Source of the DNA: a virus
Length of the DNA: 64,000 nt
Reading direction: 5' to 3' (one strand)
Virus record (IMG/VR): IMGVR_UViG_3300009314_000008
Span: 14,446-78,445 of that record
Shown here: piece by piece, positions 33,158 to 49,105 of the stretch
Layout: every line of letters begins with the position of its first letter
Position numbering within the stretch: the stretch's first letter is position 1
Translations under genes and position numbers: made by a program
Notes under the pieces: generated by a model
Told to the model about the DNA's origin: nothing
The model's input: the letters and a program-made list of their open reading frames with translations, nothing else
Database searches by the model: none

Positions 33158-33538
33158 TTATATTCGGGGCGCCCTATAATATTTTATTAATGAATTAACA
33201 TACTTTTCAGCATCTCTCTGTAATACACTGGGGAATGCTTTTGCTTTTAAATCATCAATTTCAGATAAAACTTTTGCTGCCCCCCCAGATAGTCCTCCTG
33301 CACCTACATGACGCATAGTCTTCATTAAAGATTTTGGTCCTATCAGCGAAGATAGTGCCCCTATCCCAGCCCCTAATAGAACAGCAGGCAATCGTCCCTG
33401 CTCAATATTATCAAAAGCATGAGTCTTGTAGTCTTTTATTGCCTGACTTTTGGTATATTGTGGATTAGTTGATATTTCGTCTTCGATGTCTGCAATATCT
33501 TTGACTATTGCTTCTTTAATTATTAATGGACGTTTCAT
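33158..33538 (-). CDS. Leader-bearing Gly-zipper protein (true start MKRPLIIKEA at 33538)
   Basis: AAGGAGAAATA-ATG RBS; LLGAGIGAL and VGAGGLSGGAA helices. Confidence 0.65.
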   Translation of the reverse strand: MKRPLIIKEAIVKDIADIEDEISTNPQYTKSQAIKDYKTHAFDNIEQGRLPAVLLGAGIGALSSLIGPKSLMKTMRHVGAGGLSGGAAKVLSEIDDLKAKAFPSVLQRDAEKYVNSLIKYYRAPRI

Positions 33539-33582
33539 TATTTCTCCTTTAATTTGCTCTTTCCATAACTTCGTATAATTGG

Positions 33583-33678
33583 TCAATGATATCTTTCTTC
33601 TCTTTTGATCTTTGCAACAAATAGAGGTTGTAATATAGTGCTGATCACCGCCTCTTTAACTACAATGGGACATCTCAC
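33583..33678 (-). CDS. 31-aa leader-bearing micro-ORF (not in ORF track)
   Basis: GTG start, AGGA upstream: MRCPIVVKEAVISTILQPLFVAKIKREERYH. Confidence 0.55.
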   Translation of the reverse strand: MRCPIVVKEAVISTILQPLFVAKIKREERYH

Positions 33679-33690
33679 TATTTCTATTTC

Positions 33691-34170
33691 CTATGTATCT
33701 CTCATATAGTATTTATAGTTTTTAGGATTTTTCTTTATCCCCGGTCTTTGATAATGTCTCCTGAAATTTTCTATATCAGTTTTTTTATCAGCATATGCTC
33801 GCATTCTCTCCATTCTCCTTTTATTTGGAGTAAATGCTGCACCTAATCCTATTCCACTTAATAGCGACGATCCCAATATAATAGGTAATTTGTATTTTCC
33901 TTTTATTTTTGACCCGGACATAAGACTACTAGATATTGTGCCACCCAGTCCTCCTCCTAATATCCCTCCAGCGACCTGCCTATTTTTTTTGTATACTTTA
34001 GGCAGATTCCTATATCTATTTATCCTTTTGTTCCTCAATTCATCAGATAATTCCAGATATTTATCGCTTGTTATTTCTTTTGCTTTTGTTGGGGTATACC
34101 CTCTATACTCACCTTTGTTGGATACTCTCATCAATGTAATGGCTTCTTTTACTATTCTTGGACATTTCAT
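33691..34170 (-). CDS. Leader-bearing basic protein with two Gly-zipper helices
   Basis: MKCPRIVKEA; GGILGGGLGG; ILGSSLLSGIGLGA. Confidence 0.7.
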   Translation of the reverse strand: MKCPRIVKEAITLMRVSNKGEYRGYTPTKAKEITSDKYLELSDELRNKRINRYRNLPKVYKKNRQVAGGILGGGLGGTISSSLMSGSKIKGKYKLPIILGSSLLSGIGLGAAFTPNKRRMERMRAYADKKTDIENFRRHYQRPGIKKNPKNYKYYMRDT

Positions 34171-34250
34171 TTTATTCTCCTTTATTTTTTCAATCCAGTA
34201 TATCGTCTTGGATCGTATATTCCTTATATTTAATCATATATTCTCCAAAA

Positions 34251-34382
34251 TTATTTTTTGACTGATCCTAAACCGTGTTGGATAAGAACATTGTTATTCA
34301 TTGATTTTCTAACAGTCCTTTCCTGATGTGGCTGTAAGACGGTTTTAGTTGCTGCCATTTTTACAGATGCAGGACATTTCGT
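34251..34382 (-). pseudogene. Leader fused to truncated SNF2/SF2 helicase N-terminus; start codon reads ACG
   Basis: GAGG..AAATAAG-ACG-AAA-TGT-CCT: (T)KCPASVKMAATKTVLQPHQERTVRKSMNNNVLIQHGLGSVKK*; LxPHQ Q-motif and a HGLGS(GKT)-like Walker A cut short. Confidence 0.6.
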
Positions 34383-34424
34383 CTTATTTTTCCTCTCGTT
34401 TTATATGCCTAATCATCTTAAAAC

Positions 34425-34694
34425 TTAACTAGATTTATCTTTTTTTAATGTTTGTGCTCGTCTCCAACCTGACATATATCCAAGATGATAACCTATTGAA
34501 CCAGGTATCGTTAGTAGCCCAGCGTAATTTTTAAATTTCAGTCGTTCCGGATTTTCTTTTCTGCTGATAGCTCCTTCCCTAAATCCCTTTTTCTTACCTT
34601 CTCCATGACCTATCAAAGAAGGTGTTCCAAATAACGACAGATCGATGGCAGGACCTACGAGAACGGCCATTTTAACTATTTGTGGACATTTCAT
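34425..34694 (-). CDS. Leader-bearing small protein
   Basis: MKCPQIVKMA; AGGAG RBS; Gly-rich helices. Confidence 0.7.
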   Translation of the reverse strand: MKCPQIVKMAVLVGPAIDLSLFGTPSLIGHGEGKKKGFREGAISRKENPERLKFKNYAGLLTIPGSIGYHLGYMSGWRRAQTLKKDKSS

Positions 34695-34708: not shown

Positions 34709-35209
34709 CTAAACTCCAGACACAACGTAGGGCTTACCAACTAAGGGTTGTTTACCTAACACTATGTGTGCAGGATATTTTTTATTCTTAATTATATTAT
34801 GTTTTATCTTTATACCTTTTGGTTTTATTGCTTTTAACTTCTTGTAGCCAAACCTTCCTCCAACTCCGATTGCAGCACCACCTATAGTTCCTTTGACAAC
34901 ATTTCCACCGCTTATGCCCGATGATATTCCACCGACAGATCCACCAACAATACCTGCTTTTGTATATGGATTTTTCCATATATGTTTAGCGATGGGTTTA
35001 AATGCTTTTAATGCGGCAACTATTCCCGCTTCCTTCAGTACTATTGGGCATGCCAACTTAATCCCATTATCGGTTTTTCTCTTAGTTATTGCTGGTGCAT
35101 ATCTTGCCCGGGAATTAGTTATTGTTGGCGTTTTCATCACAACAGATTGTCCGGCCTTTAATGCTTTACTATACAATAGACCCTTATCATAATTTATCAT
35201 ATTTACCAT
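34709..35209 (-). CDS. Basic protein with internal leader and Gly-zipper
   Basis: KLACPIVLKEA internal; GIVGGSVGGISSG..GTIGGAAIGVGG. Confidence 0.65.
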   Translation of the reverse strand: MVNMINYDKGLLYSKALKAGQSVVMKTPTITNSRARYAPAITKRKTDNGIKLACPIVLKEAGIVAALKAFKPIAKHIWKNPYTKAGIVGGSVGGISSGISGGNVVKGTIGGAAIGVGGRFGYKKLKAIKPKGIKIKHNIIKNKKYPAHIVLGKQPLVGKPYVVSGV

Positions 35210-35901
35210 CCTATTAGTTTATATTTAAACATCAGTCCAACCGTTGTTGTATTCCCCTTTAATCCAATTCCATATCTTTCATCAAAGATGATATCTATGC
35301 CTACAAAACCATCTAATCTCTGTTTATTATTATTAACTTCTGGATTATAATCATATTGGGTCTCCCCTACGAAGAATATCTGTCCTTTATCAACGGTTTT
35401 AATATATTTTCTTTCCCAATTGAGCCTCACATTTTTTATCTGATATCTCAATTTATCAAAGATATACATTACTCCATCTTTATCTAGATTTACATCAATA
35501 TCTATCCACTCATGAATATCAAATTGCAGAGTATCCCCTTCGGCTGTAAAGAGTTTTCGCACTTTTATTGCATTATCGCCACTATAATCTAATGTGTGGG
35601 AAGCAGCATTAGCCACCATGAGAGTATCATAAATAGTTTCTCCATCTTCTGTGACAATAATTGATATTGTATCCTTGATAATCTTGGGATTAGTAAATAG
35701 CGAATCTGCTATCGATTTCCAATTATTCGCCTGATGAGTAACCGCACTTATACTCTCCGTCAAGGAATCCACCTTGCTATCCATAAACACAAGGTCTTCC
35801 TCTTGCCTAACGATTGTATCGTTTACACCATTTCGATAGGCAAAGTGATAAATGCTGCCAGTTAGCACTACTATAATAAGCACGATTATCTTAACATCCA
35901 T
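35203..35901 (-). CDS. Membrane-anchored protein, putative spanin-like lysis protein
   Basis: N-terminal TM, coiled coil, C-terminal amphipathic beta-strands ending YKLIGW. Confidence 0.45.
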   Translation of the reverse strand: MDVKIIVLIIVVLTGSIYHFAYRNGVNDTIVRQEEDLVFMDSKVDSLTESISAVTHQANNWKSIADSLFTNPKIIKDTISIIVTEDGETIYDTLMVANAASHTLDYSGDNAIKVRKLFTAEGDTLQFDIHEWIDIDVNLDKDGVMYIFDKLRYQIKNVRLNWERKYIKTVDKGQIFFVGETQYDYNPEVNNNKQRLDGFVGIDIIFDERYGIGLKGNTTTVGLMFKYKLIGW

Positions 35902-35972: not shown

Positions 35973-36854
35973 TCAAGTAGGTCCACCAAAGTTTGCTCCA
36001 GAACACACACCTTCCGTACCTCGACTTTTAATGGATTTATTTGCTGATTGTATCCACCTTTTGGTTGCTTCCTTTAATACCCATGGACATAAAGCCTTCT
36101 TTTCTATAAGTAAATGCATAGATTTGCCCCGCGCCATCTTCAATATATTGGGATACGCTAATTTCTTAAACCAATCCGTTTTTGACACATCATCAAATGC
36201 TCTATTGATTGTTTTAGCAATTTCCTCATTGCCTCCTTTGTCGGGATGCACTTTCCTCATCGTTGCCCAATAAGCTTGTTTTACCTGACTTTTTGAGTTA
36301 ACTCCTTTCATCTTTAATCCGAAAGTACTTAAATTCTTTTTTATGGTAGCCTTTGGAATGTTCGGCGACCCTGAGTATTGTTGATATGCACGCCTGAAAC
36401 CATCATATGATGCGCCCCGCAATTTTGCGTGATTGTACGGGATAAAAGATCCTGCCAACATCCCTAATCGTATACCCACACCCACAGATTTTTTCAGTTC
36501 ATTTTTATTTCGTCGTGTTCTATTAGAATAAAATTGTTTAAATGTCGCTGATGGATTCTTTTTTTTATACCTTCCCCATTGGTTTTTAAGAGTACCAGCA
36601 TATGATAGCCCACCCCCTACTGCGCTACCTCCTCCTATTCTAATGGCCATTTGCCTCATAACCTCACTTTGTAGTGAAGCCTTTTTTGGAAGCCCCTTTC
36701 TCTTAGTTTTAGCAAATTCCCTGATTTTTTCTTTGGGCATTTTCTCGTATATCTGCCTAGCCGGACCATGTAATGCAGAGACTGGTATTTCGCCCTTTTT
36801 GGCTGCATAGACAAGTCCCATTAATTTTTGTTGGTTCTGACTGACACTGGGCAC
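35973..36854 (-). CDS. Polyprotein: DUF3008-like domain + Gly-zipper TMs + J-domain + leader-preceded small basic module (GTG start 36854; frame continues past TGA to 35901)
   Basis: PSVSQNQQKLMG...KKGE...EFAKTKRKGLP (DUF3008-like); HPDKGG; YPNILKMA and LCPWVLKEA linkers. Confidence 0.7.
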   Translation of the reverse strand: MPSVSQNQQKLMGLVYAAKKGEIPVSALHGPARQIYEKMPKEKIREFAKTKRKGLPKKASLQSEVMRQMAIRIGGGSAVGGGLSYAGTLKNQWGRYKKKNPSATFKQFYSNRTRRNKNELKKSVGVGIRLGMLAGSFIPYNHAKLRGASYDGFRRAYQQYSGSPNIPKATIKKNLSTFGLKMKGVNSKSQVKQAYWATMRKVHPDKGGNEEIAKTINRAFDDVSKTDWFKKLAYPNILKMARGKSMHLLIEKKALCPWVLKEATKRWIQSANKSIKSRGTEGVCSGANFGGPT

Positions 36855-36855
36855 G

Positions 36856-37572
36856 TTATTCTCCTGCATAGAATAATGGATTTATTCCAGCTTCAACTAA
36901 TACTGTTATTTTACCCGGATTAGACGCACCGCTGACTACTTGTATTTCAATGTCTGATTTACTCTCAACTATTATTGGTTCTTCTAAATCTATTTCTGCC
37001 ACTCCATTCAGGAGGGACACAGATAATTCCCGTTTAAATACTTTCCCAAAAGGTCTTACATTCAAAGACATAAGCGAACTCCCATCATCTGCACCCGCTT
37101 CTGACAGAATAATCTTTTTAATGAAGATCCTTTTCTTATTGGGCACTGTATAGAGAGCCATCTCACTCTTATTTTTTCCGGTTTCTATCATACCTCTAAT
37201 GTTGTTATCATTAGGTATTCCGCCTGTCGGAGCAGATTCGGTACCGATATATATGTCGCCAGCATTATTGGTGTCTCCTATATTCTCTATACTAAACACC
37301 CTTCTCCAAGAATTATCTTCTCCAATTTTTACCCCGGTTTGCCCCGAAGATGTAACCTCTACCTCTTGATAAACATAATTAGCATCTACCCCTGTCACTT
37401 TATAATCCTGATCATCTCCGTTATCAGAGCTGGACAAATATAATGTTTCTGATACAGAACCATAAATATATTCCATATTATGTGGCCAAACAAGTTGATT
37501 TACATCTGTTGTCAGATTCCCAGCATATCCTTTTATTTTTATAGGTTTCATACCCGCGAATACTTTGCTCAT
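36856..37572 (-). CDS. Virion structural protein (beta-rich)
   Basis: LYLSSSDNGDD, GVDANY, NAGDIYI, YTVP, KSDIEI pattern common in phage structural proteins. Confidence 0.5.
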   Translation of the reverse strand: MSKVFAGMKPIKIKGYAGNLTTDVNQLVWPHNMEYIYGSVSETLYLSSSDNGDDQDYKVTGVDANYVYQEVEVTSSGQTGVKIGEDNSWRRVFSIENIGDTNNAGDIYIGTESAPTGGIPNDNNIRGMIETGKNKSEMALYTVPNKKRIFIKKIILSEAGADDGSSLMSLNVRPFGKVFKRELSVSLLNGVAEIDLEEPIIVESKSDIEIQVVSGASNPGKITVLVEAGINPLFYAGE

Positions 37573-37581
37573 TTTTTCTCC

Positions 37582-40350
37582 TTACTTATCTAAATCCATA
37601 TTTGCTATTATTTTTTTATATAATGTGGGATTTATGTATCGAAGTTGCTTTAGCATTTCTACCCTGTCGGTTTCATTATAACTTTCCTGAATCTGTAGAG
37701 CCATCTCCTTGGCAACATCGTCTTCCCCCGTTTTAATCAAGGTGTTGTCCTTTTCAATTTTCATGAATTGATCTAGATTGTCGGATATCATCTGCTTAAA
37801 CTCATCGGGGAACTTTTGAACTTCCTTTACAAACTTGCCGAATTCTGGTGTTCCTTCGAGTTTAATCATCCTGGATGCATAGGCCGCGGCTTGTTGCTTA
37901 ATGAACATTCGGCTTTCCAGTTCGGTTTCTACATCTTTGGCGATATCTGGACGGTGAGCCTCAATCTCCTCAACTATATCAGATATTTCATTGTCGTCTG
38001 CATTGGCTAATCTATCTGCATAGCCCATTGTGGCCATAGCATCCGCAGTTTCTTTAACTTTAGCGAACCTCTCCGAAGATTCCTGCATTAATTGCTGTTT
38101 AAAATATTCTCTCTCGTCCTGATTTAATCTATTATAGGTTGTAGCAGACAAATTTATACTCTGATCTTCTGCTCTTTCTTCGTCCATTCTTTTAATACGT
38201 TCTTTCTGCAAGTTTGGATCCATTGTGACCGTTTTCTCTATTTGTTCTTCATCCTTTTTCTTCTTATATATATTTTCCAGTTGCTTATTGCGTTCTTCTT
38301 CGCTTAATTGGGACAATTCCTGTTTAGTCTGGGGATCAAGATTGTCGTTAATGGCCGACATTTCCTGTTCTATAGCAATTTCTTGAAGACATTTCTTTCT
38401 GTCATCGTACTTCATGCCGATCAATTCCAGTTGTTTAGTTTTTGGCAATTTTTTATAAATCTCCATCAATTGACGGTATTCTTCGGCCATCTGTCTCTTA
38501 TAATTAACCTCATCTCCCTTGAGTCCCATGGCTTCCATCTGATTCAATTCCAATTTCATTGATCGTTTTGCATCTCTATACTGCTGATCAGATTGTATTT
38601 TGAGACTTTCCTTCATATGTTCTAAAGAACCATCCATCTCATTAATCCGCCGTTTATTCTGAACATCCAATTGATAATCCAACAACTTTTTCTTGGATGC
38701 AATATCCATTTTCATCAATTTCTTATGTTTATCAATAGCGGCCTCCATTTTATCGGATTCAATGGCGGCTATAGATAACTGATCTTTCAGGGCTTCTCGA
38801 CGTTCAGTTTCTTTTATTTTCTTCTGTCCAGATAACAATACTTCTTGGAATTCAACTTCACCCTGGGCTTCGAGGCGTTTCTGCATTTTTTTGAAATAGA
38901 TTCTATCCTGTTTAGTGGCTTCTATTTTTGATCTTTGTGCTCGGAGATCAACACCAAACCGACTATAATATAATTCCGGAGATATATCTCCGTTCACCAT
39001 ACCCTTTTCGAGAAAAGTTGACTCCGCAAGGGCCTCGACCAACCTGGGCATTTCCAAAGTCAATTCGACCTTATCTTTTACATTCTGCGATGAGTTTATT
39101 TTCTCGGCTATAAAATCTAATAATTCCTGGACTAACATTCCGAATTGTTTAAATGTATTTTCGAGAATAATCGCTGATACATTTTGTCGTGACCATGTTA
39201 CTCCACCGAATATAAACTCAATAGGTACACCTATTGTGGCCAATATGTCCGACATGTTCTCGCGCAATTCTCTTCCGAGCACGAGAAGTTTGCCGGCTCC
39301 CCAAAAGTCTTTACTGCCCATTTCAATAGGCATCACCATTACATGTTTATTATCTTTTTTCCATTTTTTATATTGTGAGAGAACGCTCTGTCGCCAAGTC
39401 AACGAATTAATAGTTTGAGTCCTTGGTAGATGACCTCCAGATTCACCTCTCCAAATAGGATAAAGCATCCGGAACGGAACCATCAATTCTTCGGCAACAT
39501 TAGCGTTTGCTTGGACATACTTCATTCTTGTATAGAGATCTTGGAATGCCATTACCATGGGTGGAATTGGCATCCCTTGAATATTCATTGTCGGAGCCTC
39601 AAAGATAAATAGTTTGCTGGGATTGATGACTATCCTGCGATTTTTCAATGCCGCTCTTATATATATCTGAGGCGTTGTACAAAGAATATAATGATCACCC
39701 CTGCGTATCAGATTACGCATTTCTTTATCAATATATAATTTATATTGTTTTGTGTCAGTTATTTTATTATAAACTGCTTCAATATTGTTAGGTGACCATA
39801 CTGCTATAGACATTCTTTTTAAATTTGAACTATCTTTTCTATCTCTCATCTTAAAGGATGCATTTTTCCCATAGGCAGAACACTTTTTGTTGCGGCATTT
39901 ATATTGAATCGATCCTTCTCCCGAACTATCCCATTTATATTCTGGGTCTCCTGTATGTGTGAGATCTTTTAACAAATACGTATCTCCACAACTTTCACAC
40001 ACAATAACCTTATCAATAGCATACATCGGAAAAACAGCACTTATCCCATATATATCATAATCACGACATGTCTTCACTATTTTTTCTCTTAATTTAATCA
40101 CCCTGATCATCTTTTTGGCTCTATCCTCAAGTTCTGGATTATTACTTCTGATTTTAATATCCTGGATGGCAAATCTTGCCTTCTTGAGTATAGCCGTCCC
40201 AATCGCTGTATGGGTAAAGAAAAACTCCGCATAGCGATAATAGGTCTTCGCTCTAACGGGGACAACTATTCTGTCCATGTTCAGGTTGAACACCAAATTC
40301 TTGATTCTGCTTGTATTATAGCTGCCTTCAGTAACACTATCTAATGACAT
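37582..40350 (-). CDS. Portal protein with Zn-ribbon insert and long C-terminal coiled coil
   Basis: DYDIYGISAV, IGVPIEFIFGG, LENTF; position between terminase and protease. Confidence 0.65.
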   Translation of the reverse strand: MSLDSVTEGSYNTSRIKNLVFNLNMDRIVVPVRAKTYYRYAEFFFTHTAIGTAILKKARFAIQDIKIRSNNPELEDRAKKMIRVIKLREKIVKTCRDYDIYGISAVFPMYAIDKVIVCESCGDTYLLKDLTHTGDPEYKWDSSGEGSIQYKCRNKKCSAYGKNASFKMRDRKDSSNLKRMSIAVWSPNNIEAVYNKITDTKQYKLYIDKEMRNLIRRGDHYILCTTPQIYIRAALKNRRIVINPSKLFIFEAPTMNIQGMPIPPMVMAFQDLYTRMKYVQANANVAEELMVPFRMLYPIWRGESGGHLPRTQTINSLTWRQSVLSQYKKWKKDNKHVMVMPIEMGSKDFWGAGKLLVLGRELRENMSDILATIGVPIEFIFGGVTWSRQNVSAIILENTFKQFGMLVQELLDFIAEKINSSQNVKDKVELTLEMPRLVEALAESTFLEKGMVNGDISPELYYSRFGVDLRAQRSKIEATKQDRIYFKKMQKRLEAQGEVEFQEVLLSGQKKIKETERREALKDQLSIAAIESDKMEAAIDKHKKLMKMDIASKKKLLDYQLDVQNKRRINEMDGSLEHMKESLKIQSDQQYRDAKRSMKLELNQMEAMGLKGDEVNYKRQMAEEYRQLMEIYKKLPKTKQLELIGMKYDDRKKCLQEIAIEQEMSAINDNLDPQTKQELSQLSEEERNKQLENIYKKKKDEEQIEKTVTMDPNLQKERIKRMDEERAEDQSINLSATTYNRLNQDEREYFKQQLMQESSERFAKVKETADAMATMGYADRLANADDNEISDIVEEIEAHRPDIAKDVETELESRMFIKQQAAAYASRMIKLEGTPEFGKFVKEVQKFPDEFKQMISDNLDQFMKIEKDNTLIKTGEDDVAKEMALQIQESYNETDRVEMLKQLRYINPTLYKKIIANMDLDK

Positions 40351-41979: not shown

Positions 41980-43599
41980 TTATTTTTTTACTCTATATTC
42001 TAATTCGTCAAAATGGTATTTCTTCACTAATCTCAATATAACCAAATTCTGGAAAAAGTCATCTGTGCCTGACTTCCCATATCTGATTTTTCTTTTTCCA
42101 GTATCGTGATATCGATAGACGTTTGTCAAGTCTTTTGCATATTCTGAGGTCTCCCCAGGATATTTTGCAAATTTGTATTCACCTTTTCTCACAATATCGT
42201 CTATTAATCCAGTCATTACCGTTGATCTCGCCATTACCCATTTCTCGAATTCTGGATAATATGCCACCTTCTCAGCCAACTCTCCTACATATTCAAATTC
42301 CATCGTCCTCTTAAAACCAAGTATTTCTATTATCCGGATATTTTCTTTGTGCCCAGCACCATAATCCATTCCGAGAATCAATACATTAAAGTGGTTTACC
42401 CAATAGACAACATCGTTAATTATATCATCTGGAGATCCATCTTCTCCCTTTCCATAATATCTTCTGACGAAATTTATATTAATCTTGCGCGACCCAGGAT
42501 CGTATGATCCTATCGTGAGCATGGTATAGGACTTTATTTTCGACAATTTTTTCCGCGGGTCATCTTCTACAGCCCAATCCAATGCCGCAAAAGAATACTC
42601 CTTCATTTTTTTAGTAATTTCAGAAGGATCTTTTACGTATTCCCTATCGCTATCGCATAAATATACTACCCTCTGCAATGTTATAGGATGTATATTGTCT
42701 GAAAATGATAACCCTAGAACTTCATTATGGAAATCAACCTCATCTTTTTTATTATAATCGTATAAAATTGTATCCCAATCTGAAGCAAAGGGTGCTTCGG
42801 GGGGGATCATCAACTCGTTAATTGAAAATCCCTCGAAAGGTCTTCCGGGATGCGCCTCTACCCATTCTCCCCACCATGTGCTAATTCTCTTATGACATTT
42901 TTCGCAGATAATACCCTTAAGACCCATATTCTTTATGCCAAGCCCGACATTCCAATGGCCGCATGCCCTACATTTAATCGCCCATTCACATCCTGTTGAA
43001 TCATCGAATGTCGTTTGGATTCTATTCTCCGGTTGCATCGGCGTTCCCGTCTTAAGCATATATTTATATTTAGACCTTTTCAGCGCAAACTCAACAATAC
43101 TAGCGTGCTGTTCAGGAGTATCTTGCATCTCGTCCTCAATATAGCAATCACCGATAATTCCCCGAGCAGATAGTGGCGACACATAAATATTAGCTAAGAG
43201 TATTCTTGAGCCGGTCAAGTAGGATTTGTTTTTTACTTGTCTTTCGTTTAAACGAGGGTCGTAATAAATAACATCCGTGACCACAGAATCCCGGTTAATC
43301 CCCTTCAGAATGTCTGTTGAAAACCGACTCACCTGGGCATCGGTAGGTAAGGTTATAATAGTATTAAAATATTTATGTTCAATCGCGAATCCGGTAGCAA
43401 GAATTGCGGCATTTGTTGATTTGGCTACTTTACGCGAACATTTTAGAATCACCCGGCGTTGAACTTGAGGAGATTCAAGGGTAAATCGAGAAGTATTAAT
43501 TATAGGTATCCAAAAGGGTAAATATTTGAAAGAGAGGGCATCTCCATCAAGTTTAAACCATGCTTGGTATAAATCGCTCCGAGTTATTGCTTTATTCAT
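41980..43599 (-). CDS. terL: Terminase large subunit (lambda gpA-like)
   Basis: KCSRKVAKST Walker A, DEMQD Walker B, TGTP, CxxC..CxxC, NEVLG, RNase H acidic residues ALDWA/MDYG/DDFFQ. Confidence 0.85.
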   Translation of the reverse strand: MNKAITRSDLYQAWFKLDGDALSFKYLPFWIPIINTSRFTLESPQVQRRVILKCSRKVAKSTNAAILATGFAIEHKYFNTIITLPTDAQVSRFSTDILKGINRDSVVTDVIYYDPRLNERQVKNKSYLTGSRILLANIYVSPLSARGIIGDCYIEDEMQDTPEQHASIVEFALKRSKYKYMLKTGTPMQPENRIQTTFDDSTGCEWAIKCRACGHWNVGLGIKNMGLKGIICEKCHKRISTWWGEWVEAHPGRPFEGFSINELMIPPEAPFASDWDTILYDYNKKDEVDFHNEVLGLSFSDNIHPITLQRVVYLCDSDREYVKDPSEITKKMKEYSFAALDWAVEDDPRKKLSKIKSYTMLTIGSYDPGSRKININFVRRYYGKGEDGSPDDIINDVVYWVNHFNVLILGMDYGAGHKENIRIIEILGFKRTMEFEYVGELAEKVAYYPEFEKWVMARSTVMTGLIDDIVRKGEYKFAKYPGETSEYAKDLTNVYRYHDTGKRKIRYGKSGTDDFFQNLVILRLVKKYHFDELEYRVKK

Positions 43600-43613: not shown

Positions 43614-43865
43614 TTACGGTTGTTTAATCCATTTCCCCATTCTCTTATAATCTGCATAACCGCCAGCTCCTGCACCTAACAAACTTCCTCCCATAAATGC
43701 ACCTATTGTAGACAAAGGATTGTATTTTTTTTGTTTACCTTTTTTAATCCTTTTATTTTGGGATGAGCTATTTAGCATAGATGCTCCTATACCACCACCC
43801 AACATACCAATACCCGTCCTTAATCCCGGTACATAGGCTTCCTTAATTATCTCTGGACATTTCAT
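43614..43865 (-). CDS. Leader-bearing Gly-zipper protein
   Basis: MKCPEIIKEA; GMLGGGIGA; GGSLLGAGAGG. Confidence 0.7.
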   Translation of the reverse strand: MKCPEIIKEAYVPGLRTGIGMLGGGIGASMLNSSSQNKRIKKGKQKKYNPLSTIGAFMGGSLLGAGAGGYADYKRMGKWIKQP

Positions 43866-44155
43866 TTCATTCTCCTCTTTATTATAGATATCAAATCGCT
43901 TGCATCTCTTTTTAATTTCTTAACCATCTTTATCTGCCTAGCCTTTTCAAATTTCTTTGCCTGTCTCATGTAGTTAACCTGATAAGGGATTGCCTTGACT
44001 TGTAGTTTTATTGATCTGACAGGGTAGTATCTTCTATATTTAGAAAGGTCGTTAATAAAATTATGAGAGAATATTGCTTTAGTCATTGCTTTGGTAGACG
44101 CTCTCCCTAACAATGTTGAAGTTAAGGCTTCTTTAATTATCCCTGGACATCTCAC
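43862..44155 (-). CDS. Leader-bearing basic helical protein
   Basis: MRCPGIIKEA; ATGA/GTGA coupling on both sides. Confidence 0.7.
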   Translation of the reverse strand: MRCPGIIKEALTSTLLGRASTKAMTKAIFSHNFINDLSKYRRYYPVRSIKLQVKAIPYQVNYMRQAKKFEKARQIKMVKKLKRDASDLISIIKRRMK

Positions 44156-45999
44156 AACAAATCCTCCCCATAAATTTTTAACTTTTTATATAGTATTTTC
44201 TTTATCTTTGGCATATTTAATGGAATCTTATCTTTCATTTTATTTAATGTCTTCAATCCAAAAGCACTTGCTTCCGCTTCTGATAAATACTCGTTCATAG
44301 CAGTAGGCTTCTTCCAATATTTCTGGTTATATGTTTGTTTCTTAAGAATATCCAATAATCCTTTTTTGCTCTTCACAGCATGCCCCAGTTCGTGAGACAA
44401 CACTGCTGCCGGCTCATTTTTTCTTGGAAGCATAGAGACGATCTTCCTGACAGCAACATTTTTCACTTTAGGAATAGATATAGATAAATCATTTCCTCTA
44501 CCTTTGAGAAATTGCCCGCCACGCAGCAATCTAATATAATCTCTTACCCCAATATCTGAGTTGACTCCCCCATATTCTATATTGAGCATTCTCTTAAGAG
44601 TGGGATTGATCTTTTTAAGTGGGATGAAATGCCTCTCTATAGGAATCTTGTGCGCCTTTATTTCTCGAAGTAAAGGTCTTAATTTAAGTATAGACCTTAG
44701 GGAAGACTTTTTTTGTAAAATGCTGGGGCAATTCATTGTTTTTCCCACTTTAAAAAGTTTTTGTTTATTTAGAGGACTTCCGGTTCTACCCTTCATAGTC
44801 CATTCCTTGAATTGCTCTACGGTCATCGCCGTGATCGGTCCACATTTCCATCCCTTCTCATAATTAGCGAGATATGTTTTTCTAGCCTCATCTTCAGTGA
44901 GTGCCCCGAGGATACACTTGTGTTCATCGAATTTACCGTTCTTGTCTACTTGATCAATTACATACACTATCTGACTTTCTGGATGACTTCCTATGAACAC
45001 ATCAATTTTGTCCCCATCTTTCCCATCCTGTGCATTAGAGATGTATCCATAATCATATTTCATCTTTATTGACCACGATTTACCATCTGGGTCAGTTCCG
45101 GATCTCGTTGATCCCTTTGGGTTCTCCAATTTAATAGTCAGTCCATTCCACTTGAATGACCCTTTTTTGTAGTTCTCGGCTTTTATTTGGGCATCTGATG
45201 GGTTAATGTTGGTATCTTTTCGAGCCCTATTTATATCTCCGGTCATTGTTGCTATTTTAATATTATTGGGCATTCTGTCATTTAACGCCTCCCTCATTGC
45301 TCTGTATGAATCTTTTTTAATGTTACGTTTCATGTCCAAGTTTGTAGGGAATGCCTTATAGTTAGTAATATCAAAGTCTATTAAAGTGTTTCCTATTGTG
45401 TTTTGAGCGGTAGTATCTCTAAGATGAGGAAACCTTTTTTTAATATTCTTATAGTCCGACTTGTTTATTATATTTGCATTAATTATTTTATGAACTTTTT
45501 CTCTTGCCTTGTTTATAGAAATTATTCTTTTTTGCCATCTAATTTTTTCTGCTACTGTCCCCTCTCTTGGATACTCATTAGGGACCATATTTTTTTTTAT
45601 TATTGCCGCTTTATCAGAAATTTTTCTCCCCTTAATGTATTCATAATATCCAATCCCTTTATTTCTCTTTACCATTTTCGCTACAGGAATACCCTTTTTG
45701 TGCATTAACTTCCTCGCTTTATTCCATACCTTATGCTCCATTGCCTGAGCTTTATATATTCCTATAATATCGCTTGCAGATTTTCTGTCTATTAAAGGTA
45801 TTTTTCTAACAGCTTTTCCAATACCTTCTGTGAATACGAGGTCGGCGATCCTGAAAGCTCCTCTACCTAATGGCTTTATCGTCCTGTCTTTATACCCAGC
45901 TTCCGCCAGTCTTTTAAGCGACTCTCTTCCTAATTTCCCAGACCTCACCATCTTAACCCATCTTGGAGAAGCTCTCTTCAGTATTACAGGACAATTCAT
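44152..45999 (-). CDS. Polyvalent protein: protein kinase-like domain + InPase domain + HExxH zinc metallopeptidase, each preceded by a leader
   Basis: LGRGAF, AVRK, EH, YYEYIKG, DTTAQN, LIDFD; then NYKKG..ENPKGS.RSG...YGY..DGD.IDVF...FDEHK; then HELGH...EAEASAFG. Confidence 0.8.
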   Translation of the reverse strand: MNCPVILKRASPRWVKMVRSGKLGRESLKRLAEAGYKDRTIKPLGRGAFRIADLVFTEGIGKAVRKIPLIDRKSASDIIGIYKAQAMEHKVWNKARKLMHKKGIPVAKMVKRNKGIGYYEYIKGRKISDKAAIIKKNMVPNEYPREGTVAEKIRWQKRIISINKAREKVHKIINANIINKSDYKNIKKRFPHLRDTTAQNTIGNTLIDFDITNYKAFPTNLDMKRNIKKDSYRAMREALNDRMPNNIKIATMTGDINRARKDTNINPSDAQIKAENYKKGSFKWNGLTIKLENPKGSTRSGTDPDGKSWSIKMKYDYGYISNAQDGKDGDKIDVFIGSHPESQIVYVIDQVDKNGKFDEHKCILGALTEDEARKTYLANYEKGWKCGPITAMTVEQFKEWTMKGRTGSPLNKQKLFKVGKTMNCPSILQKKSSLRSILKLRPLLREIKAHKIPIERHFIPLKKINPTLKRMLNIEYGGVNSDIGVRDYIRLLRGGQFLKGRGNDLSISIPKVKNVAVRKIVSMLPRKNEPAAVLSHELGHAVKSKKGLLDILKKQTYNQKYWKKPTAMNEYLSEAEASAFGLKTLNKMKDKIPLNMPKIKKILYKKLKIYGEDLL

Positions 46000-46011
46000 T
46001 TAATACCTCTT

Positions 46012-46896
46012 TTAGTGGCGTTTTTTAAAATATTCAGATGCTTCGGGGTTACTTTTATAGAGTTGGAACCTGTATTTCCTTCTTAGGTATTTCATACGTA
46101 ACTCATCTAATTTTCTTGGAGACTTAAATACATACTTCCTTGTCTTCGGGCTCCTCATCATGCGAAATCTTCTCGTGAGCGGACCCCTAATAAGTGCATT
46201 AAATGCTTTTCCTGAAACATCCGCCGCATTCGTGACGAGTCGTCCCGACACCGCTGTTTTCGGTATATAAGGTGCTCTCTCATATGCAAGTTTACTGAAC
46301 CACCCTGAGTTTTTAATGGATGTCCATGCTCCCACCACTTCTTTCATAATATCCTCCGAACCACCTTTATCAGGGTGGCTTTTCATTGCTGCTGCTCTAA
46401 AAATCTTTTTTACCTGAGCCTTAGTCTTTACTGACGATTTATTAATGTTTAGCGTTTTAATTGCTTTATCTAAATTTCCGCTCTTTACCGCGAACCCACC
46501 TAAGTTTTTAAAGTATTCATAATATTTTTTATTTAAATCTTCCCACATTGCCCGGTTCATCCTTCCTCTTATGTTTTCTGCTGCTCCATTAAGCCCTCTT
46601 CTTATGTTTTCTGCTGCTTCATTAAGCCCTCTCATTCTTCTTTTATGCCGATACACCGATGGTCCTATTGCCATCCCCACAAGAGCTCCCCCAATAGCTG
46701 TCCCTATTGCGGCATCTTTAAGATCCTTACCGGATTTCGTCTTTATGTATTGCCCAAAAGATAATCTGTTTTTTCTCCCACCCCGCACATACTTATTGTA
46801 GTTTCGGTGTCCTTGCCATAAACTTGCCCCACCGAGCATTCCACCCAATGTGCCGCAGGTGGCAGTAGTTCCAGCTATTGTCTTAAATGCTCCCAT
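46012..46896 (-). CDS. Gly-zipper TM + J-domain protein with C-terminal leader-preceded module
   Basis: GTLGGMLGG, GTAIGGALVG; HPDKGG; WFSKLAY..APYIPKTA; paralogous to 35973..36854. Confidence 0.75.
   Translation of the reverse strand: MGAFKTIAGTTATCGTLGGMLGGASLWQGHRNYNKYVRGGRKNRLSFGQYIKTKSGKDLKDAAIGTAIGGALVGMAIGPSVYRHKRRMRGLNEAAENIRRGLNGAAENIRGRMNRAMWEDLNKKYYEYFKNLGGFAVKSGNLDKAIKTLNINKSSVKTKAQVKKIFRAAAMKSHPDKGGSEDIMKEVVGAWTSIKNSGWFSKLAYERAPYIPKTAVSGRLVTNAADVSGKAFNALIRGPLTRRFRMMRSPKTRKYVFKSPRKLDELRMKYLRRKYRFQLYKSNPEASEYFKKRH
46567..46632. repeat. 33-bp in-frame tandem duplication
   Basis: Two copies of TCTTATGTTTTCTGCTGCTYCATTAAGCCCTCT with one mismatch (RGLN[EG]AAENIR x2). Confidence 0.9.
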
Positions 46897-46984
46897 TATT
46901 TCTCCTTTTTCAATCTCTTTAAATCAACAGGCGGTAGATTGATACCACCGCCCACCTACTGAAGGGGAAGGGTTCCTCAGTATT

Positions 46985-47107
46985 CTATTTAACAAACACC
47001 CATTCGATTACAACAGTGCCTGAACAGTTTAGATCACCATCTGGATGCCAATGCCATAACCCTCTATCTTCAACATCGGCAATTTTCAATATTTTAGGAC
47101 ATTTCAT
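46985..47107 (-). CDS. 40-aa leader-bearing micro-ORF (not in ORF track)
   Basis: MKCPKILKIADVEDRGLWHWHPDGDLNCSGTVVIEWVFVK; its end matches the end of 48470..49105. Confidence 0.6.
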   Translation of the reverse strand: MKCPKILKIADVEDRGLWHWHPDGDLNCSGTVVIEWVFVK

Positions 47108-47146
47108 TTGTTCGCCTACTTTAAATAATTTTTGTTCATTAATATG

Positions 47147-48214
47147 TTATCTTATCTTCCTGATAATTCCTGAAATAAATTTTCTCGCCTTTATGGGCAC
47201 TTTTTTATAGTTTTCTGCCTTAATCTGTGCTTCTGACGGATTAGCATTAGTTGCTTTGCGAGCACTGGCAATATCTGATAACATCCCGGAGAATTTTATC
47301 ATAGCATTTTTTTTGATTTGATTCACTCCATTTTTATCTTTATTTTTTGCTTCTCTAATTCCAGCGGCAACCAAAGCCCCTCCTAATATAACGGAGGGTA
47401 TTATTTTATTTTTGTTTCTGCTGAAATATCCAGGAAACGTTTTCTTATAGTTTTCAGTCGTACGCATTCCATTAGCAAACGCTTTATAAGTATCACGATA
47501 ATGCTTGGATGGTCCTCTATCCATTGTATAAGTTTGGGGTCCTAGAATATCAAAGTCTACTAGCGTTCTATCAACAAGATTTCTATTCGTCATATCATAT
47601 ATTCTCGGATATTTTCTTTTTATTTTTCGCATGGTTTTAGCATCTATAGGTGATTTATTAAGAATCCTTAACATCCTTAATTTAGCATTCTTTACCCGAA
47701 TTCTCCTAACTCTATCACCCTGCTTTCCATATTCGTCTAGTTTATTAAATAATTTTTTTGCTTTATTAGCAACGCTCCTACCTTTAACATGCTCATAATA
47801 TCCTATTGGGCCATCTTGTTTTATCAATCGAGGAACCTTTATCTTCTTTTTTGACAAATATTTTTGCACTTTATTCCATACAAAATGTTCCTTTGCTTGG
47901 CTATTATATGGCTCATGAATATAATATTTCGACACCCCCTCTATATTAGGTATTTTTCTAACAGCTTTACCCACCCTACTAGTAAATACCAAGTCAGAGA
48001 CTCTTGTTCCTCCCACTCCAAGATGTTTTATTGTCCTATCTTTATATCCAGCATTTGCAAGAATTTTTAATGCCTTCTCACTTAATTTGCCTGACCTTAT
48101 CATCTTGATCCATTTGGGAGACGAATACTTCTCTATTGCAGATATCTTAATTATTGTTGGAAGCATACTTATTCTCCTAATTCCCGATGTTTTTATGATA
48201 CAAGGGCATTTCAT
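47147..48214 (-). CDS. Leader-bearing protein kinase-like protein + TM helix + truncated InPase stub
   Basis: MKCPCIIKTS; LGVGG, AVRK, EH, YYEHVKG, DMTNRN, LVDFD; ends NPSEAQIKAENYKK. Confidence 0.75.
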   Translation of the reverse strand: MKCPCIIKTSGIRRISMLPTIIKISAIEKYSSPKWIKMIRSGKLSEKALKILANAGYKDRTIKHLGVGGTRVSDLVFTSRVGKAVRKIPNIEGVSKYYIHEPYNSQAKEHFVWNKVQKYLSKKKIKVPRLIKQDGPIGYYEHVKGRSVANKAKKLFNKLDEYGKQGDRVRRIRVKNAKLRMLRILNKSPIDAKTMRKIKRKYPRIYDMTNRNLVDRTLVDFDILGPQTYTMDRGPSKHYRDTYKAFANGMRTTENYKKTFPGYFSRNKNKIIPSVILGGALVAAGIREAKNKDKNGVNQIKKNAMIKFSGMLSDIASARKATNANPSEAQIKAENYKKVPIKARKFISGIIRKIR

Positions 48215-48469: not shown

Positions 48470-49105
48470 CTATTCTTTAAGTAATACCCATTCTATCACA
48501 ACTGTTCCAACATATTCCAATGCATCTTCACCACTAGCTGCCCATCCATCAGCGACATTCAAGTATACTGTTTTATCACCACCTGTCTCAATCTCCAGGG
48601 GGTCTGCTAATGCCAATGTTTTCGTAGTATAAGTGCTATCACAATCTGTAGCGGTCTGGCCGGTTAAAATATTTTCAAACGCGGCTGTTCCGCCCAACAC
48701 ATTTACAACACCCGATGCTACCGTAGTTCCAATACCTACATCTGGGGTGTCTGCAGTAATATTCCCATCACTTTCATTCAAAGCAATATTCATATATGCG
48801 CCCTTGACAACTATTGCCCCCGTGGGGAAAGTATACAGTAACTGTCCCAAAGCCAAATCGGCTCCGCCAGGTATATCGGCAAAGTGGGCAGATGATATTG
48901 CAATTTCAGTTACATGGAATTTTGCGTCGCCATATTCTACTACGGAGGCTACACTATCAGATTTTGTACCCACATTTTTAGTAGTGATCATGGTACTGTC
49001 CGTCTGCACCTTCCCGTAGAATCGATTAGTTGCAGACTTAAAGTCCTTCGCAAATAGCGATGTCACCAACAACATCGCAAGCAAAATAATTACTAATTTC
49101 TTCAT
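48470..49105 (-). CDS. Beta-rich protein with Sec signal peptide
   Basis: MKKLVIILLAMLLVTSLFA-K; jelly-roll-like body. Confidence 0.6.
   Translation of the reverse strand: MKKLVIILLAMLLVTSLFAKDFKSATNRFYGKVQTDSTMITTKNVGTKSDSVASVVEYGDAKFHVTEIAISSAHFADIPGGADLALGQLLYTFPTGAIVVKGAYMNIALNESDGNITADTPDVGIGTTVASGVVNVLGGTAAFENILTGQTATDCDSTYTTKTLALADPLEIETGGDKTVYLNVADGWAASGEDALEYVGTVVIEWVLLKE

What the first reader, a model, noticed from the sequence alone, without database searches (positions are those of the whole stretch)
45350..48214. Two paralogous minimal protein kinase-like effectors carrying the cargo leader
Seen: both 44152..45999 and 47147..48214 have, in order, a Gly-loop (IKPLGRGAF / IKHLGVGGT), beta3 Lys (AVRK), alphaC Glu (EHKVW/EHFVW), hinge (YYEYIKG/YYEHVKG), catalytic DxxxxN (DTTAQN/DMTNRN) and Mg-binding LIDFD/LVDFD, with a very short C-lobe. 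Known: this is the protein kinase-like fold signature; T7 gp0.7 is a precedent for a phage kinase, but it is expressed early rather than packaged. Inference: virion-delivered kinases that could phosphorylate host or defence proteins, or small molecules, before any phage transcription.
Basis: partly seen in the sequence, partly recalled or inferred. Interest (0 to 1): 0.8.

Follow-up and report, generated by a model that had tools for sequence, protein, structure and literature searches.

The report
Truncated phage kinase domains beside terminase
Two neighbouring genes of an uncultured 135-kb phage encode a stripped-down protein-kinase-like enzyme domain with every core catalytic residue intact. 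This type was predicted in 2017 to ride inside phage heads as part of multi-enzyme 'polyvalent' proteins, so it is a real and testable example but not a new kind.

Summary

A profile search found 85 mostly unannotated relatives. Across 49 of them, at about 20-25% identity to the window copy, the only invariant residues are G45, G47, G61, K66, D195, N200 and D208. These include the glycine loop, the beta3 lysine, the D-x4-N catalytic loop and the DFG aspartate of a kinase.

Sequence methods (Pfam, NCBIfam, PDB HMM search, hhalign against Hanks kinases) do not detect the relationship. The alphaC glutamate and the second Asp of 'DFD' are not conserved across the family.

Relatives occur alone, in tandem inside 1563-2594-aa proteins, and fused to InPase or HD domains. 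This matches the C-lobe-less kinases of phage polyvalent proteins described by Iyer et al. 2017.

Packaging into the virion and early action in the host remain inference.

The parts
44152..45999 (-). Protein A, 615 aa. Order of parts: leader, kinase-like domain, InPase, internal leader, zincin-like domain (a polyvalent protein).
   Evidence: ORF. Pfam InPase E 1e-50 and a weak Peptidase_M91 match.
45970..45999 (-). Leader of A, MNCPVILKRA (aa 1-10), ending in the K-x-A/S word.
   Evidence: K8 is present in 43 of 49 family members and position 10 is A or S in 43 of 49.
45265..45969 (-). Kinase-like domain of A (aa 11-245). It has two N-terminal helices, beta1-3, alphaC, beta4-5, a hinge, alphaD, alphaE, the catalytic loop, the DFG-Asp and one last helix.
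   Evidence: AF2 model with pLDDT 91.3 and pTM 0.85. Foldseek and VIA hits.
45802..45870 (-). ATP-binding elements of A: glycine loop LGRGAF (45853-45870) and the beta3 lysine in AVRK (45802-45813).
   Evidence: Positions. G45, G47 and K66 are invariant in 49 of 49 sequences.
45370..45417 (-). Catalytic loop DTTAQN (45400-45417) and metal-binding LIDFD (45370-45384) of A.
   Evidence: Positions. D195, N200 and D208 are invariant in 49 of 49; D210 is not conserved.
44797..45195 (-). InPase domain of A (aa 269-401).
   Evidence: Pfam PF18823, E 1e-50, covering 134 of 135 profile positions. PHROG hits are to virion, minor head and DarB-like proteins.
44707..44736 (-). Internal second leader of A, MNCPSILQKK (aa 422-431), lying between the InPase and zincin-like parts.
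44152..44706 (-). C-terminal zincin-like metallopeptidase part of A, with HELGH at 44380-44394.
   Evidence: The HExxH motif is read directly from the sequence. Pfam Peptidase_M91 gives E 9.4e-5 at 23.3 bits, below the 25-bit cut-off.
47147..48214 (-). Protein B, 355 aa. Order of parts: leader, kinase-like domain, hydrophobic helix, stub of the InPase start.
   Evidence: Both candidate starts, 48214 and 48166, have a Shine-Dalgarno-like word upstream.
47429..48139 (-). Kinase-like domain of B (aa 26-262). Motif positions: LGVGGT 48005-48022, AVRK 47954-47965, DMTNRN 47579-47596, LVDFD 47549-47563.
47357..47404 (-). Hydrophobic, glycine-rich helix IIPSVILGGALVAAGI (aa 271-286). It is present in B only.
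   Evidence: Read from the sequence. It falls in an alignment gap relative to A.
47201..47263 (-). Stub of the InPase N-terminus in B (ARKATNANPSEAQIKAENYKK). The rest of the InPase domain is missing.
   Evidence: It aligns to A aa 258-279. No InPase hit was found in B.
46985..47107 (-). Short leader-bearing ORF (MKCPKILK...) in the same frame as B, four codons after B's stop. It is preceded by NEQKLFKVGEQ, which matches NKQKLFKVGKT before A's internal leader, so it is a remnant of an A-like polyprotein.

Best explanation
**What it is.** Both genes encode a minimal protein-kinase-like (PKL) phosphotransferase domain of about 235 aa. The domain keeps a complete N-lobe and the catalytic core up to the DFG-type aspartate. 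It has lost the activation segment and the whole alphaF-alphaI subdomain.

**The family.** It is rare: 85 clusters at E <= 1e-3 among 1.84 billion representatives. It was not found in the 231 other genomes searched from the bin's phylum. It occurs as stand-alone proteins and as one or several beads in large polyvalent proteins. This fits the C-lobe-less Ser/Thr/Tyr-type kinases of phage polyvalent proteins described by Iyer et al. 2017.

**Likely chemistry.** The most likely reaction is Mg-ATP-dependent phosphoryl transfer:
- K66 holds the alpha and beta phosphates.
- D195 acts as the base.
- N200 and D208 bind the metals.

**Proposed life cycle (inferred, not shown).**
1. The proteins are made late, together with the head genes.
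2. They are targeted to or processed in the prohead through the N-terminal hydrophobic-K-x-A/S leader. In protein A, cleavage would also occur at the same word between domains, giving separate kinase, InPase and peptidase pieces.
3. They are ejected with the DNA.
4. The kinase then modifies host proteins, possibly defence or transcription/translation factors, as shown for the unrelated early T7 kinase.

Protein B is a deletion derivative of an A-like polyprotein that has kept an intact kinase.
For: **Shown**
- The two proteins are paralogues, E 2e-60.
- A profile search found 85 relatives at E <= 1e-3 and 29 at E <= 1e-10.
- In 49 aligned relatives the only invariant residues are G45, G47, G61, K66, D195, N200 and D208.
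- The AF2 model on that alignment has pLDDT 91.3 and pTM 0.85.
- All of Foldseek's top 50 PDB hits are kinase-like, with probability 0.51-1.00 (0.9 or more for most) and best E 6e-4.
- The aligned ranges place G45, K66 and D208 at the same offsets as the glycine loop, beta3 Lys and DFG Asp of BRAF, PknB and Rio2. The residue numbers of those kinases come from my own knowledge.
- The named language-model neighbours in the ESM Atlas are APH, YrbL, OspG and T7-kinase clusters, at score 0.93.
- Even the poor first model (pLDDT 46) pulled out RIO2 and PRPK.

**Context**
- P0009 has three tandem copies and P0012 has two.
- P0017 repeats the kinase-InPase fusion, and P0060 is HD plus kinase.
- A distant homologue on a 108.7-kb IMG/VR contig lies 3.5 kb from a phrog_2522 major head protein. 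The window's own capsid gene hits the same PHROG.
- The genes lie directly upstream of the terminase large subunit.

**Literature**
- C-lobe-less kinases in polyvalent proteins: PMC5512222.
- T7 kinase as a broad anti-defence enzyme: PMC13645617.
Against: - No sequence method links the family to kinases. Pfam, NCBIfam and PDB HMM searches gave no kinase hit. The one exception is a weak FTA2 match in 4 of 49 members (best E 0.0013).
- hhalign of the family profile against 13 Hanks-type kinase domains was negative.
- The alphaC glutamate is not conserved across the family (17 of 49).
- The third glycine of GxGxxG is replaced by Gln or Arg.
- No data exist on ATP binding, on any substrate, or on virion content. 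The phage is uncultured.
- The recurrent fusion to a pyrophosphatase would fit a PPi-releasing reaction better than a kinase reaction.
Confidence: 0.7

Rival explanations
1. The domain has the kinase-like fold but is not a protein kinase. It could be an ATPase or autophosphorylating switch like RIO and Bud32/PRPK. It could also be a nucleotidyl-transferase (an AMPylase like SelO) whose PPi product is removed by the fused InPase.
For: - RIO1 alignments also take in the N-terminal helices, spanning model residues 5/6 to 213/214.
- The kinase-InPase fusion recurs in a distant lineage, P0017.
- There is no substrate-binding C-lobe.
Against: - Domains in polyvalent proteins are largely independent beads, and InPase is fused to many other partners (PMC5512222).
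- The D-x4-N loop is invariant, and most members carry a basic residue at D+2 (Arg in 28 of 49) as protein kinases do. In part of the window's own clade the basic residue sits at D+4 instead.
- Stand-alone members have no InPase.
Confidence: 0.15
2. It is a small-molecule kinase. The substrate could be a nucleotide-derived immune signal, an antibiotic-like compound or an envelope sugar or lipid, in the manner of APH, choline/Kdo kinases or YrbL.
For: - APH(2'') and macrolide phosphotransferases are among the structural hits.
- APH and YrbL clusters are among the nearest named ESM Atlas neighbours.
- Losing the C-lobe removes the usual peptide-binding platform.
- Iyer et al. suggest that the neighbouring InPase may act on nucleotide-like substrates.
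Against: - Most top hits, and the best ones, are protein kinases.
- APH-type enzymes rely on a helical C-terminal subdomain for substrate binding, and that subdomain is also missing here.
- Iyer et al. judged the polyvalent-protein kinases to be closer to protein kinases.
Confidence: 0.1
3. The enzyme is real but is not virion cargo. It would be an ordinary late cytoplasmic protein, for example one acting on phage or host proteins during assembly. The 'leader' would then be only the N-terminal cap of the domain's first helix.
For: - The K-x-A/S word is conserved at the N-terminal edge of the domain across the whole family, including members with only two residues before it. It could therefore be structural.
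- No proteomic evidence exists.
- A gene's position next to the terminase gene does not prove packaging.
Against: - The same decapeptide heads unrelated small ORFs in the head module.
- It recurs between the domains of A, and before each tandem kinase copy in P0009 and P0012.
- InPase relatives are annotated as virion or minor head proteins.
- A distant homologue also lies in a head module.
Confidence: 0.3

Closest known systems
C-lobe-less Ser/Thr/Tyr-type kinase domains of phage polyvalent proteins (Iyer, Burroughs, Anand, de Souza, Aravind 2017, J Bacteriol, PMC5512222)
   Same: - The entire C-terminal subdomain is lost while the ATP-binding and phosphotransfer residues are intact.
- The domains occur in large multi-domain phage proteins alongside InPase and zincin MPTase, and also as stand-alone versions.
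- The genes sit among virion genes.
- The predicted role is as an injected effector.
   Different: - The window's two copies lack two of the published signature residues. The Glu before strand 2 is F or T here, and the Gln in beta5 is Y here. Both residues are present in part of the wider family (13 of 49 and 11 of 49).
- The published alignment (File S2) was not available, so I could not test direct membership.
- The M-x-C-P-x-I-I-K leader is not described in that paper.
Phage T7 protein kinase gp0.7 (T7K)
   Same: It is a phage-encoded kinase-like enzyme that acts on host proteins. A recent paper shows that it disarms many defence systems by promiscuous phosphorylation (PMC13645617). It is also among the nearest named ESM Atlas neighbours.
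   Different: - T7K is an early gene product and is not in the head module.
- It has DPV in place of DFG and carries a C-terminal shut-off/DNA-binding domain.
- No sequence match to it was found here.
Small atypical kinases: PRPK/Bud32 and RIO1/RIO2
   Different: - They are cellular enzymes of ribosome biogenesis or tRNA modification.
- They retain more of the C-lobe.
- No profile match was found, and the RIO1 Pfam model finds nothing in this genome.
Minimal bacterial effector kinases (OspG/NleH family)
   Same: They are kinases of about 200 aa with a truncated C-lobe that one organism delivers into another.
   Different: - They are type III secretion effectors of animal pathogens that need host E2~ubiquitin for activation.
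- There is no detectable sequence relationship to the family described here.

Membership tests
Protein kinase-like (PKL) superfamily | N-lobe of five beta strands plus alphaC, a hinge, and a catalytic core with alphaD/alphaE, as seen in solved kinases | tested here: met
Protein kinase-like (PKL) superfamily | Glycine-rich loop and an invariant beta3 lysine | tested here: met
   G45, G47 and K66 are invariant in 49 of 49 sequences. The spacing from G45 to K66 is 21 residues.
Protein kinase-like (PKL) superfamily | AlphaC glutamate pairing with the beta3 lysine | tested here: inconclusive
   Both window copies and their close homologues have Glu here. Across the family only 17 of 49 do, with Gln in 11 and Arg in 7. 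The alignment of this helix may be unreliable.
Protein kinase-like (PKL) superfamily | Catalytic D-x4-N loop followed by a metal-binding Asp (the DFG position) | tested here: met
   D195, N200 and D208 are invariant in 49 of 49 sequences.
Protein kinase-like (PKL) superfamily | Significant sequence-profile match to a family of the kinase clan | tested here: not met
   Pfam, NCBIfam and PDB HMM searches gave no kinase hit. The only sign is a weak FTA2 match in 4 of 49 members, best E 0.0013. hhalign against 13 Hanks kinases was negative.
Protein kinase-like (PKL) superfamily | ATP binding and phosphoryl transfer | not testable with these tools
   This needs biochemistry.
Canonical Hanks-type protein kinase (Pfam PF00069) | Activation segment with APE, and the alphaF-alphaI subdomains VIII-XI | tested here: not met
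   Only about 35 residues and one helix follow D208. Structural alignments stop 5-15 residues after the DFG position. There is no PF00069 hit.
Polyvalent-protein kinase clade of Iyer et al. 2017 | Loss of the whole C-terminal subdomain with the active-site residues kept | tested here: met
   The definition comes from PMC5512222.
Polyvalent-protein kinase clade of Iyer et al. 2017 | Occurrence in phage polyvalent proteins and as stand-alone versions | tested here: met
   Protein A is kinase-InPase-zincin. P0009 has three copies, P0012 has two, P0017 is fused to InPase and P0060 to HD. Many members of 200-320 aa stand alone.
Polyvalent-protein kinase clade of Iyer et al. 2017 | [quoted passage not shown] | tested here: inconclusive
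   In the window copies these positions are F/T and Y. Across the family, Glu occurs at position 49 in 13 of 49 and Gln at position 119 in 11 of 49. My mapping of the published description onto these columns is itself a guess.
Polyvalent-protein kinase clade of Iyer et al. 2017 | Insert between the conserved His and the catalytic Asp | not tested
   The published alignment (File S2) was not available. No conserved His precedes D195 in this family.
T7 kinase family | DPV motif at the DFG position and a C-terminal shut-off/DNA-binding domain | tested here: not met
   The window copies read D-F-D, and the family reads D-F/L/A-x. No such C-terminal domain is present. The feature definitions come from PMC13645617.
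InPase (Pfam PF18823), middle domain of protein A | Full-length match above the curated cut-off | tested here: met
   E 1e-50 at 171.5 bits against a cut-off of 26.8, covering profile positions 1-134 of 135.
Zincin-like MPTase, C-terminal part of protein A | HExxH helix plus a downstream Glu, and a profile match | tested here: inconclusive
   HELGH is present at aa 536-540. Peptidase_M91 scores 23.3 bits, below its 25-bit cut-off, and M48 is weak. The fold was not modelled.

The most novel reading that the evidence does not exclude
The truncated kinase-like domain would be capsid cargo, released by cleavage at the K-x-A/S word and ejected with the DNA. It would act in the first seconds of infection, before any phage gene is expressed. 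Its conserved pairing with a pyrophosphatase would reflect a coupled, PPi-releasing nucleotidylation of host defence proteins or immune nucleotides rather than simple phosphorylation.
Probability: 0.1. Interest if true: 0.8.

Novelty: new member of a known kind. Interest (0 to 1): 0.45.

Why it matters
Phage kinases have recently been shown to be broad anti-defence weapons: the T7 kinase (PMC13645617) and the phage kinase of Jiang et al. 2024 cited in that paper. Those enzymes, however, are made only after infection begins.

A kinase carried inside the virion would act before any transcription. That class has been predicted only by computation since 2017. It has no Pfam model and, as far as I could find, no solved structure or assay.

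This locus offers two compact, apparently active copies, one of them stand-alone at 355 aa. There is now also an alignment of 49 relatives that yields a confident model. Together these make the class directly testable by expression, mutant assays and structure determination.

The domain also shows how far the kinase fold can be cut down while keeping every core catalytic residue.

Tried and rejected
**Sequence searches that found no kinase**
- Pfam on both proteins, and on every member of alignments A1 and A2. The only sign was a weak FTA2 match.
- NCBIfam on A2.
- phmmer and hmmsearch against PDB sequences. The best hits were noise at E >= 0.1.
- hhalign, global and local, of the family profile against 13 Hanks kinase domains taken from relatives of the host genome. 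There was no meaningful alignment.

**Structure searches that added little**
- The first AF2 run, on six sequences, was too poor to use (pLDDT 46).
- BFVD viral structures gave only weak matches, mostly to kinases, and no close viral neighbour.

**Context searches**
- The search for related loci with alignment A1 in IMG/VR found no relative.
I therefore could not survey host organisms.
Only one IMG/VR context (L015) was examined.
- I looked for SusD as a marker of a Bacteroidota host and found none. The host phylum remains unnamed.
- The RIO1 Pfam model has no match in this genome.

**Not attempted**

Full report
**Setting**

The window is the reverse strand of contig C1 (134.6 kb, 36.6% GC, three tRNAs). 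C1 belongs to a 2.76-Mb, 189-contig genome bin.

All genes in the window run on the minus strand. I identified:
- a terminase large subunit at 41980-43599 (phrog_675, E 1e-40);
- a 922-aa ORF at 37582-40350, read as the portal from its size and position only, since neither PHROGs nor Pfam matched it;
- a major head protein at 27713-28720 (phrog_2522);
- a tail sheath at 23238-25280.

The terminase is at most about 25% identical to anything among 50,697 deposited phage genomes. This is therefore a new myovirus-like phage. The two genes of the finding lie directly upstream of the terminase gene in the direction of transcription.

**The observation**

They are clear paralogues: 39% identity over 322 columns, E 2e-60. 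All six motif groups sit at the stated places and in the same order in both proteins.

Both proteins begin with the decapeptide leader. The same word heads, or lies inside, about ten other minus-strand frames in the head region; the three plus-strand pattern matches follow no start codon and are not leader-like.

Protein A is larger than the finding suggests:
- residues 269-401 are an InPase domain (PF18823, E 1e-50);
- a second leader, MNCPSILQKK, lies at residues 422-431;
- the C-terminus carries HELGH, with a sub-threshold Peptidase_M91 match.

Protein B ends with the first 20 or so residues of the InPase region and then a stop codon. Four codons later, in the same frame, comes NEQKLFKVGEQ-MKCPKILK..., which mirrors NKQKLFKVGKT-MNCPSILQ in A. 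B is therefore a deletion derivative of an A-like polyprotein that has kept its kinase-like part whole.

**Is it a kinase fold?**

Sequence methods say nothing. Pfam, NCBIfam and HMM searches of all PDB sequences gave no kinase match for the proteins or for a profile of their close homologues.

The word-indexed protein search found only four relatives, all 214-256 aa and stand-alone. Three of these begin with an MKCP leader; the fourth, P0005 (214 aa), starts inside the domain. With those six sequences AlphaFold2 failed (pLDDT 46). Even so, that model's best Foldseek hits were already RIO2 and PRPK.

The exhaustive profile search over 1.84 billion representatives found 85 proteins at E <= 1e-3 and 29 at E <= 1e-10. 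I aligned 49 of them, about 20-25% identical to A. The only invariant columns are G45, G47, G61, K66, D195, N200 and D208. These include the glycine loop, the beta3 lysine, the D-x4-N catalytic loop and the DFG-type aspartate.

- the alphaC glutamate is Glu in only 17 of 49 sequences;
- the second Asp of 'DFD' is Asp in only 10 of 49.

With the 49-sequence alignment the model is confident: pLDDT 91.3, pTM 0.85. Its elements run beta1-3, a long alphaC, beta4-5, alphaD, a long alphaE, a short helix, the catalytic loop, and a single last helix after D208.

The fold searches agree with each other:
- All of Foldseek's top 50 PDB hits are kinase-like: RIO2, CK2, DYRK2, CDK2, APH(2''), PRPK, ROCK1, KSR1 and YtaA. 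Probabilities are 0.51-1.00 (0.9 or more for most), the best E is 6e-4, and TM-scores are 0.25-0.39.

- the hit list is uniform;
- the alignments start at beta1 and stop 5-15 residues after the DFG position of each kinase;
- the offsets of G45, K66 and D208 within those ranges match the known glycine loop, beta3 Lys and DFG Asp of BRAF, PknB and Rio2 (residue numbers from my own knowledge);
- these same residues are the invariant ones.

The ESM Atlas adds a different kind of signal. No near cluster has a common Pfam family. The nearest named clusters are APH, YrbL, OspG and T7-kinase, at score 0.93.

Against this stand two results. hhalign of the family profile against 13 Hanks kinase domains, taken from relatives of the host bin, was negative. 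The only Pfam sign is a weak FTA2 match in 4 of 49 members. FTA2 belongs to the kinase clan as far as I recall.

**What the relatives show**

- P0009 (2594 aa) holds three tandem copies and P0012 (1563 aa) holds two. Each copy is preceded by a K-x-A/S word.
- P0017 repeats the kinase-InPase fusion in a lineage that matches the family profile only at E about 1e-17 to 1e-24. P0060 is HD plus kinase.
- In the 49 aligned members, K8 is present in 43, and position 10 is Ala or Ser in 43.
- The residues before K8 read M-x-C-P-x-I-I in the window's clade and F-x-x-E-L-E in many distant members.
- One distant homologue could be placed in context. On a 108.7-kb IMG/VR contig it lies 3.5 kb downstream of a phrog_2522 major head protein, next to a weak virion-structural-protein match (phrog_38102, E 8e-5). 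The window's own capsid protein belongs to the same PHROG.
- The domain was not found in any of the other 231 genomes searched in the bin's phylum, which is what a phage-borne gene would predict.

**Comparison with what is known**

Iyer et al. 2017 (PMC5512222) describe a monophyletic group of Ser/Thr/Tyr-type kinase domains in polyvalent proteins. [quoted passage not shown] They occur in phage polyvalent proteins and as stand-alone versions, and the authors predict that they act like T7 kinase after delivery. The same paper describes InPase and zincin MPTase as typical phage-type polyvalent-protein domains that are probably packaged.

Protein A (kinase, InPase, zincin) is therefore a textbook polyvalent protein, and the concept is not new.

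I could not prove clade membership. The published alignment was not available. The two signature residues I could map (Glu before strand 2, Gln in beta5) are present in only part of the family and not in the window's copies.

The family is not a T7-kinase relative. T7K has DPV at the DFG position and a C-terminal DNA-binding domain (PMC13645617). It is not a canonical Hanks kinase either, because subdomains VIII-XI are absent.

**Mechanism**

Shown:
- the fold;
- the invariant catalytic residues;
- the domain architectures;
- the head-module location.

Inferred:
- Mg-ATP-dependent phosphoryl transfer;
- loading into the capsid by the leader and release by cleavage at K-x-A/S;
- ejection with the DNA;
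- host proteins as targets.

A basic residue at D+2 (Arg in 28 of 49) — or, in part of the window's own clade, at D+4 — resembles protein kinases more than small-molecule kinases.

The alternatives are a RIO/Bud32-like ATPase, a SelO-like nucleotidyl-transferase coupled to the pyrophosphatase, a small-molecule kinase, or an enzyme that is not packaged. Each is kept as a rival with its own test.

**Verdict**

It is a new, sequence-divergent member of a kind predicted by computation in 2017 and, as far as I could find, never tested at the bench. Interest is moderate.

Noticed in passing
window 46985-47107 (-) and 48470-49105 (-): The 40-aa leader-bearing stub ORF ends in GTVVIEWVFVK. This resembles the C-terminus YVGTVVIEWVLLKE of the 211-aa signal-peptide protein upstream, as if a C-terminal piece had been copied.
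   Followed up: partly
window 48130-48214 (-): Protein B carries three successive hydrophobic-K-x-S words before its domain: CIIKTS, TIIKIS and AIEKYS. A has only one. Gene callers in public data started B at Met17 (P0001, 339 aa). Both candidate starts have Shine-Dalgarno-like words upstream.
   Followed up: partly
window 46012-46896 (-) and 35973-36869 (-): Two proteins have weak DnaJ (J-domain) matches, E about 1e-4. I read the HPDKGG motif directly in the first. The second also has DUF3008 at its N-terminus (E 1e-13). Both lie among the leader-bearing genes.
   Followed up: partly
window 43614-43865 (-), 43862-44155 (-), 33158-34694 (-): Several small ORFs of 83-159 aa begin with the same M-K/R-C-P-x-I-V/I-K-E/M-A leader and have no family match. 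Some have glycine-zipper-like tails.
   Followed up: no
P0009 (2594 aa) and P0012 (1563 aa): These giant metagenomic proteins hold three and two tandem copies of the truncated kinase domain. Each copy is preceded by a K-x-A/S word (VKMAAPRW, IKQAS, EKQAN). Neither protein has any Pfam match.
   Followed up: partly
L015 1700-8800 (+): In the IMG/VR relative, K-T/I-A-S words (QTKTAS, VIKTASP, IEKISTS, LQKIAKH) recur in the head-module proteins. A K-x-A/S processing code may therefore be shared by a wider phage group that has phrog_2522 capsids.
   Followed up: no
window 35203-35901 (-): A 232-aa protein inside the head module has a weak match to an Rz-like spanin (phrog_739, E 9e-6). That is an odd place for a lysis gene.
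   Followed up: no
G000 contig C1 (whole, 134,618 bp): The phage contig is the largest contig of a 96.6%-complete bacterial bin. Its GC content (36.6%) is close to the rest of the bin (34.5%), and I found no terminal repeat. It may be a co-binned phage rather than a prophage. The genomes of this bin and its relatives carry Pkinase-domain open frames of about 1800 aa.
   Followed up: partly
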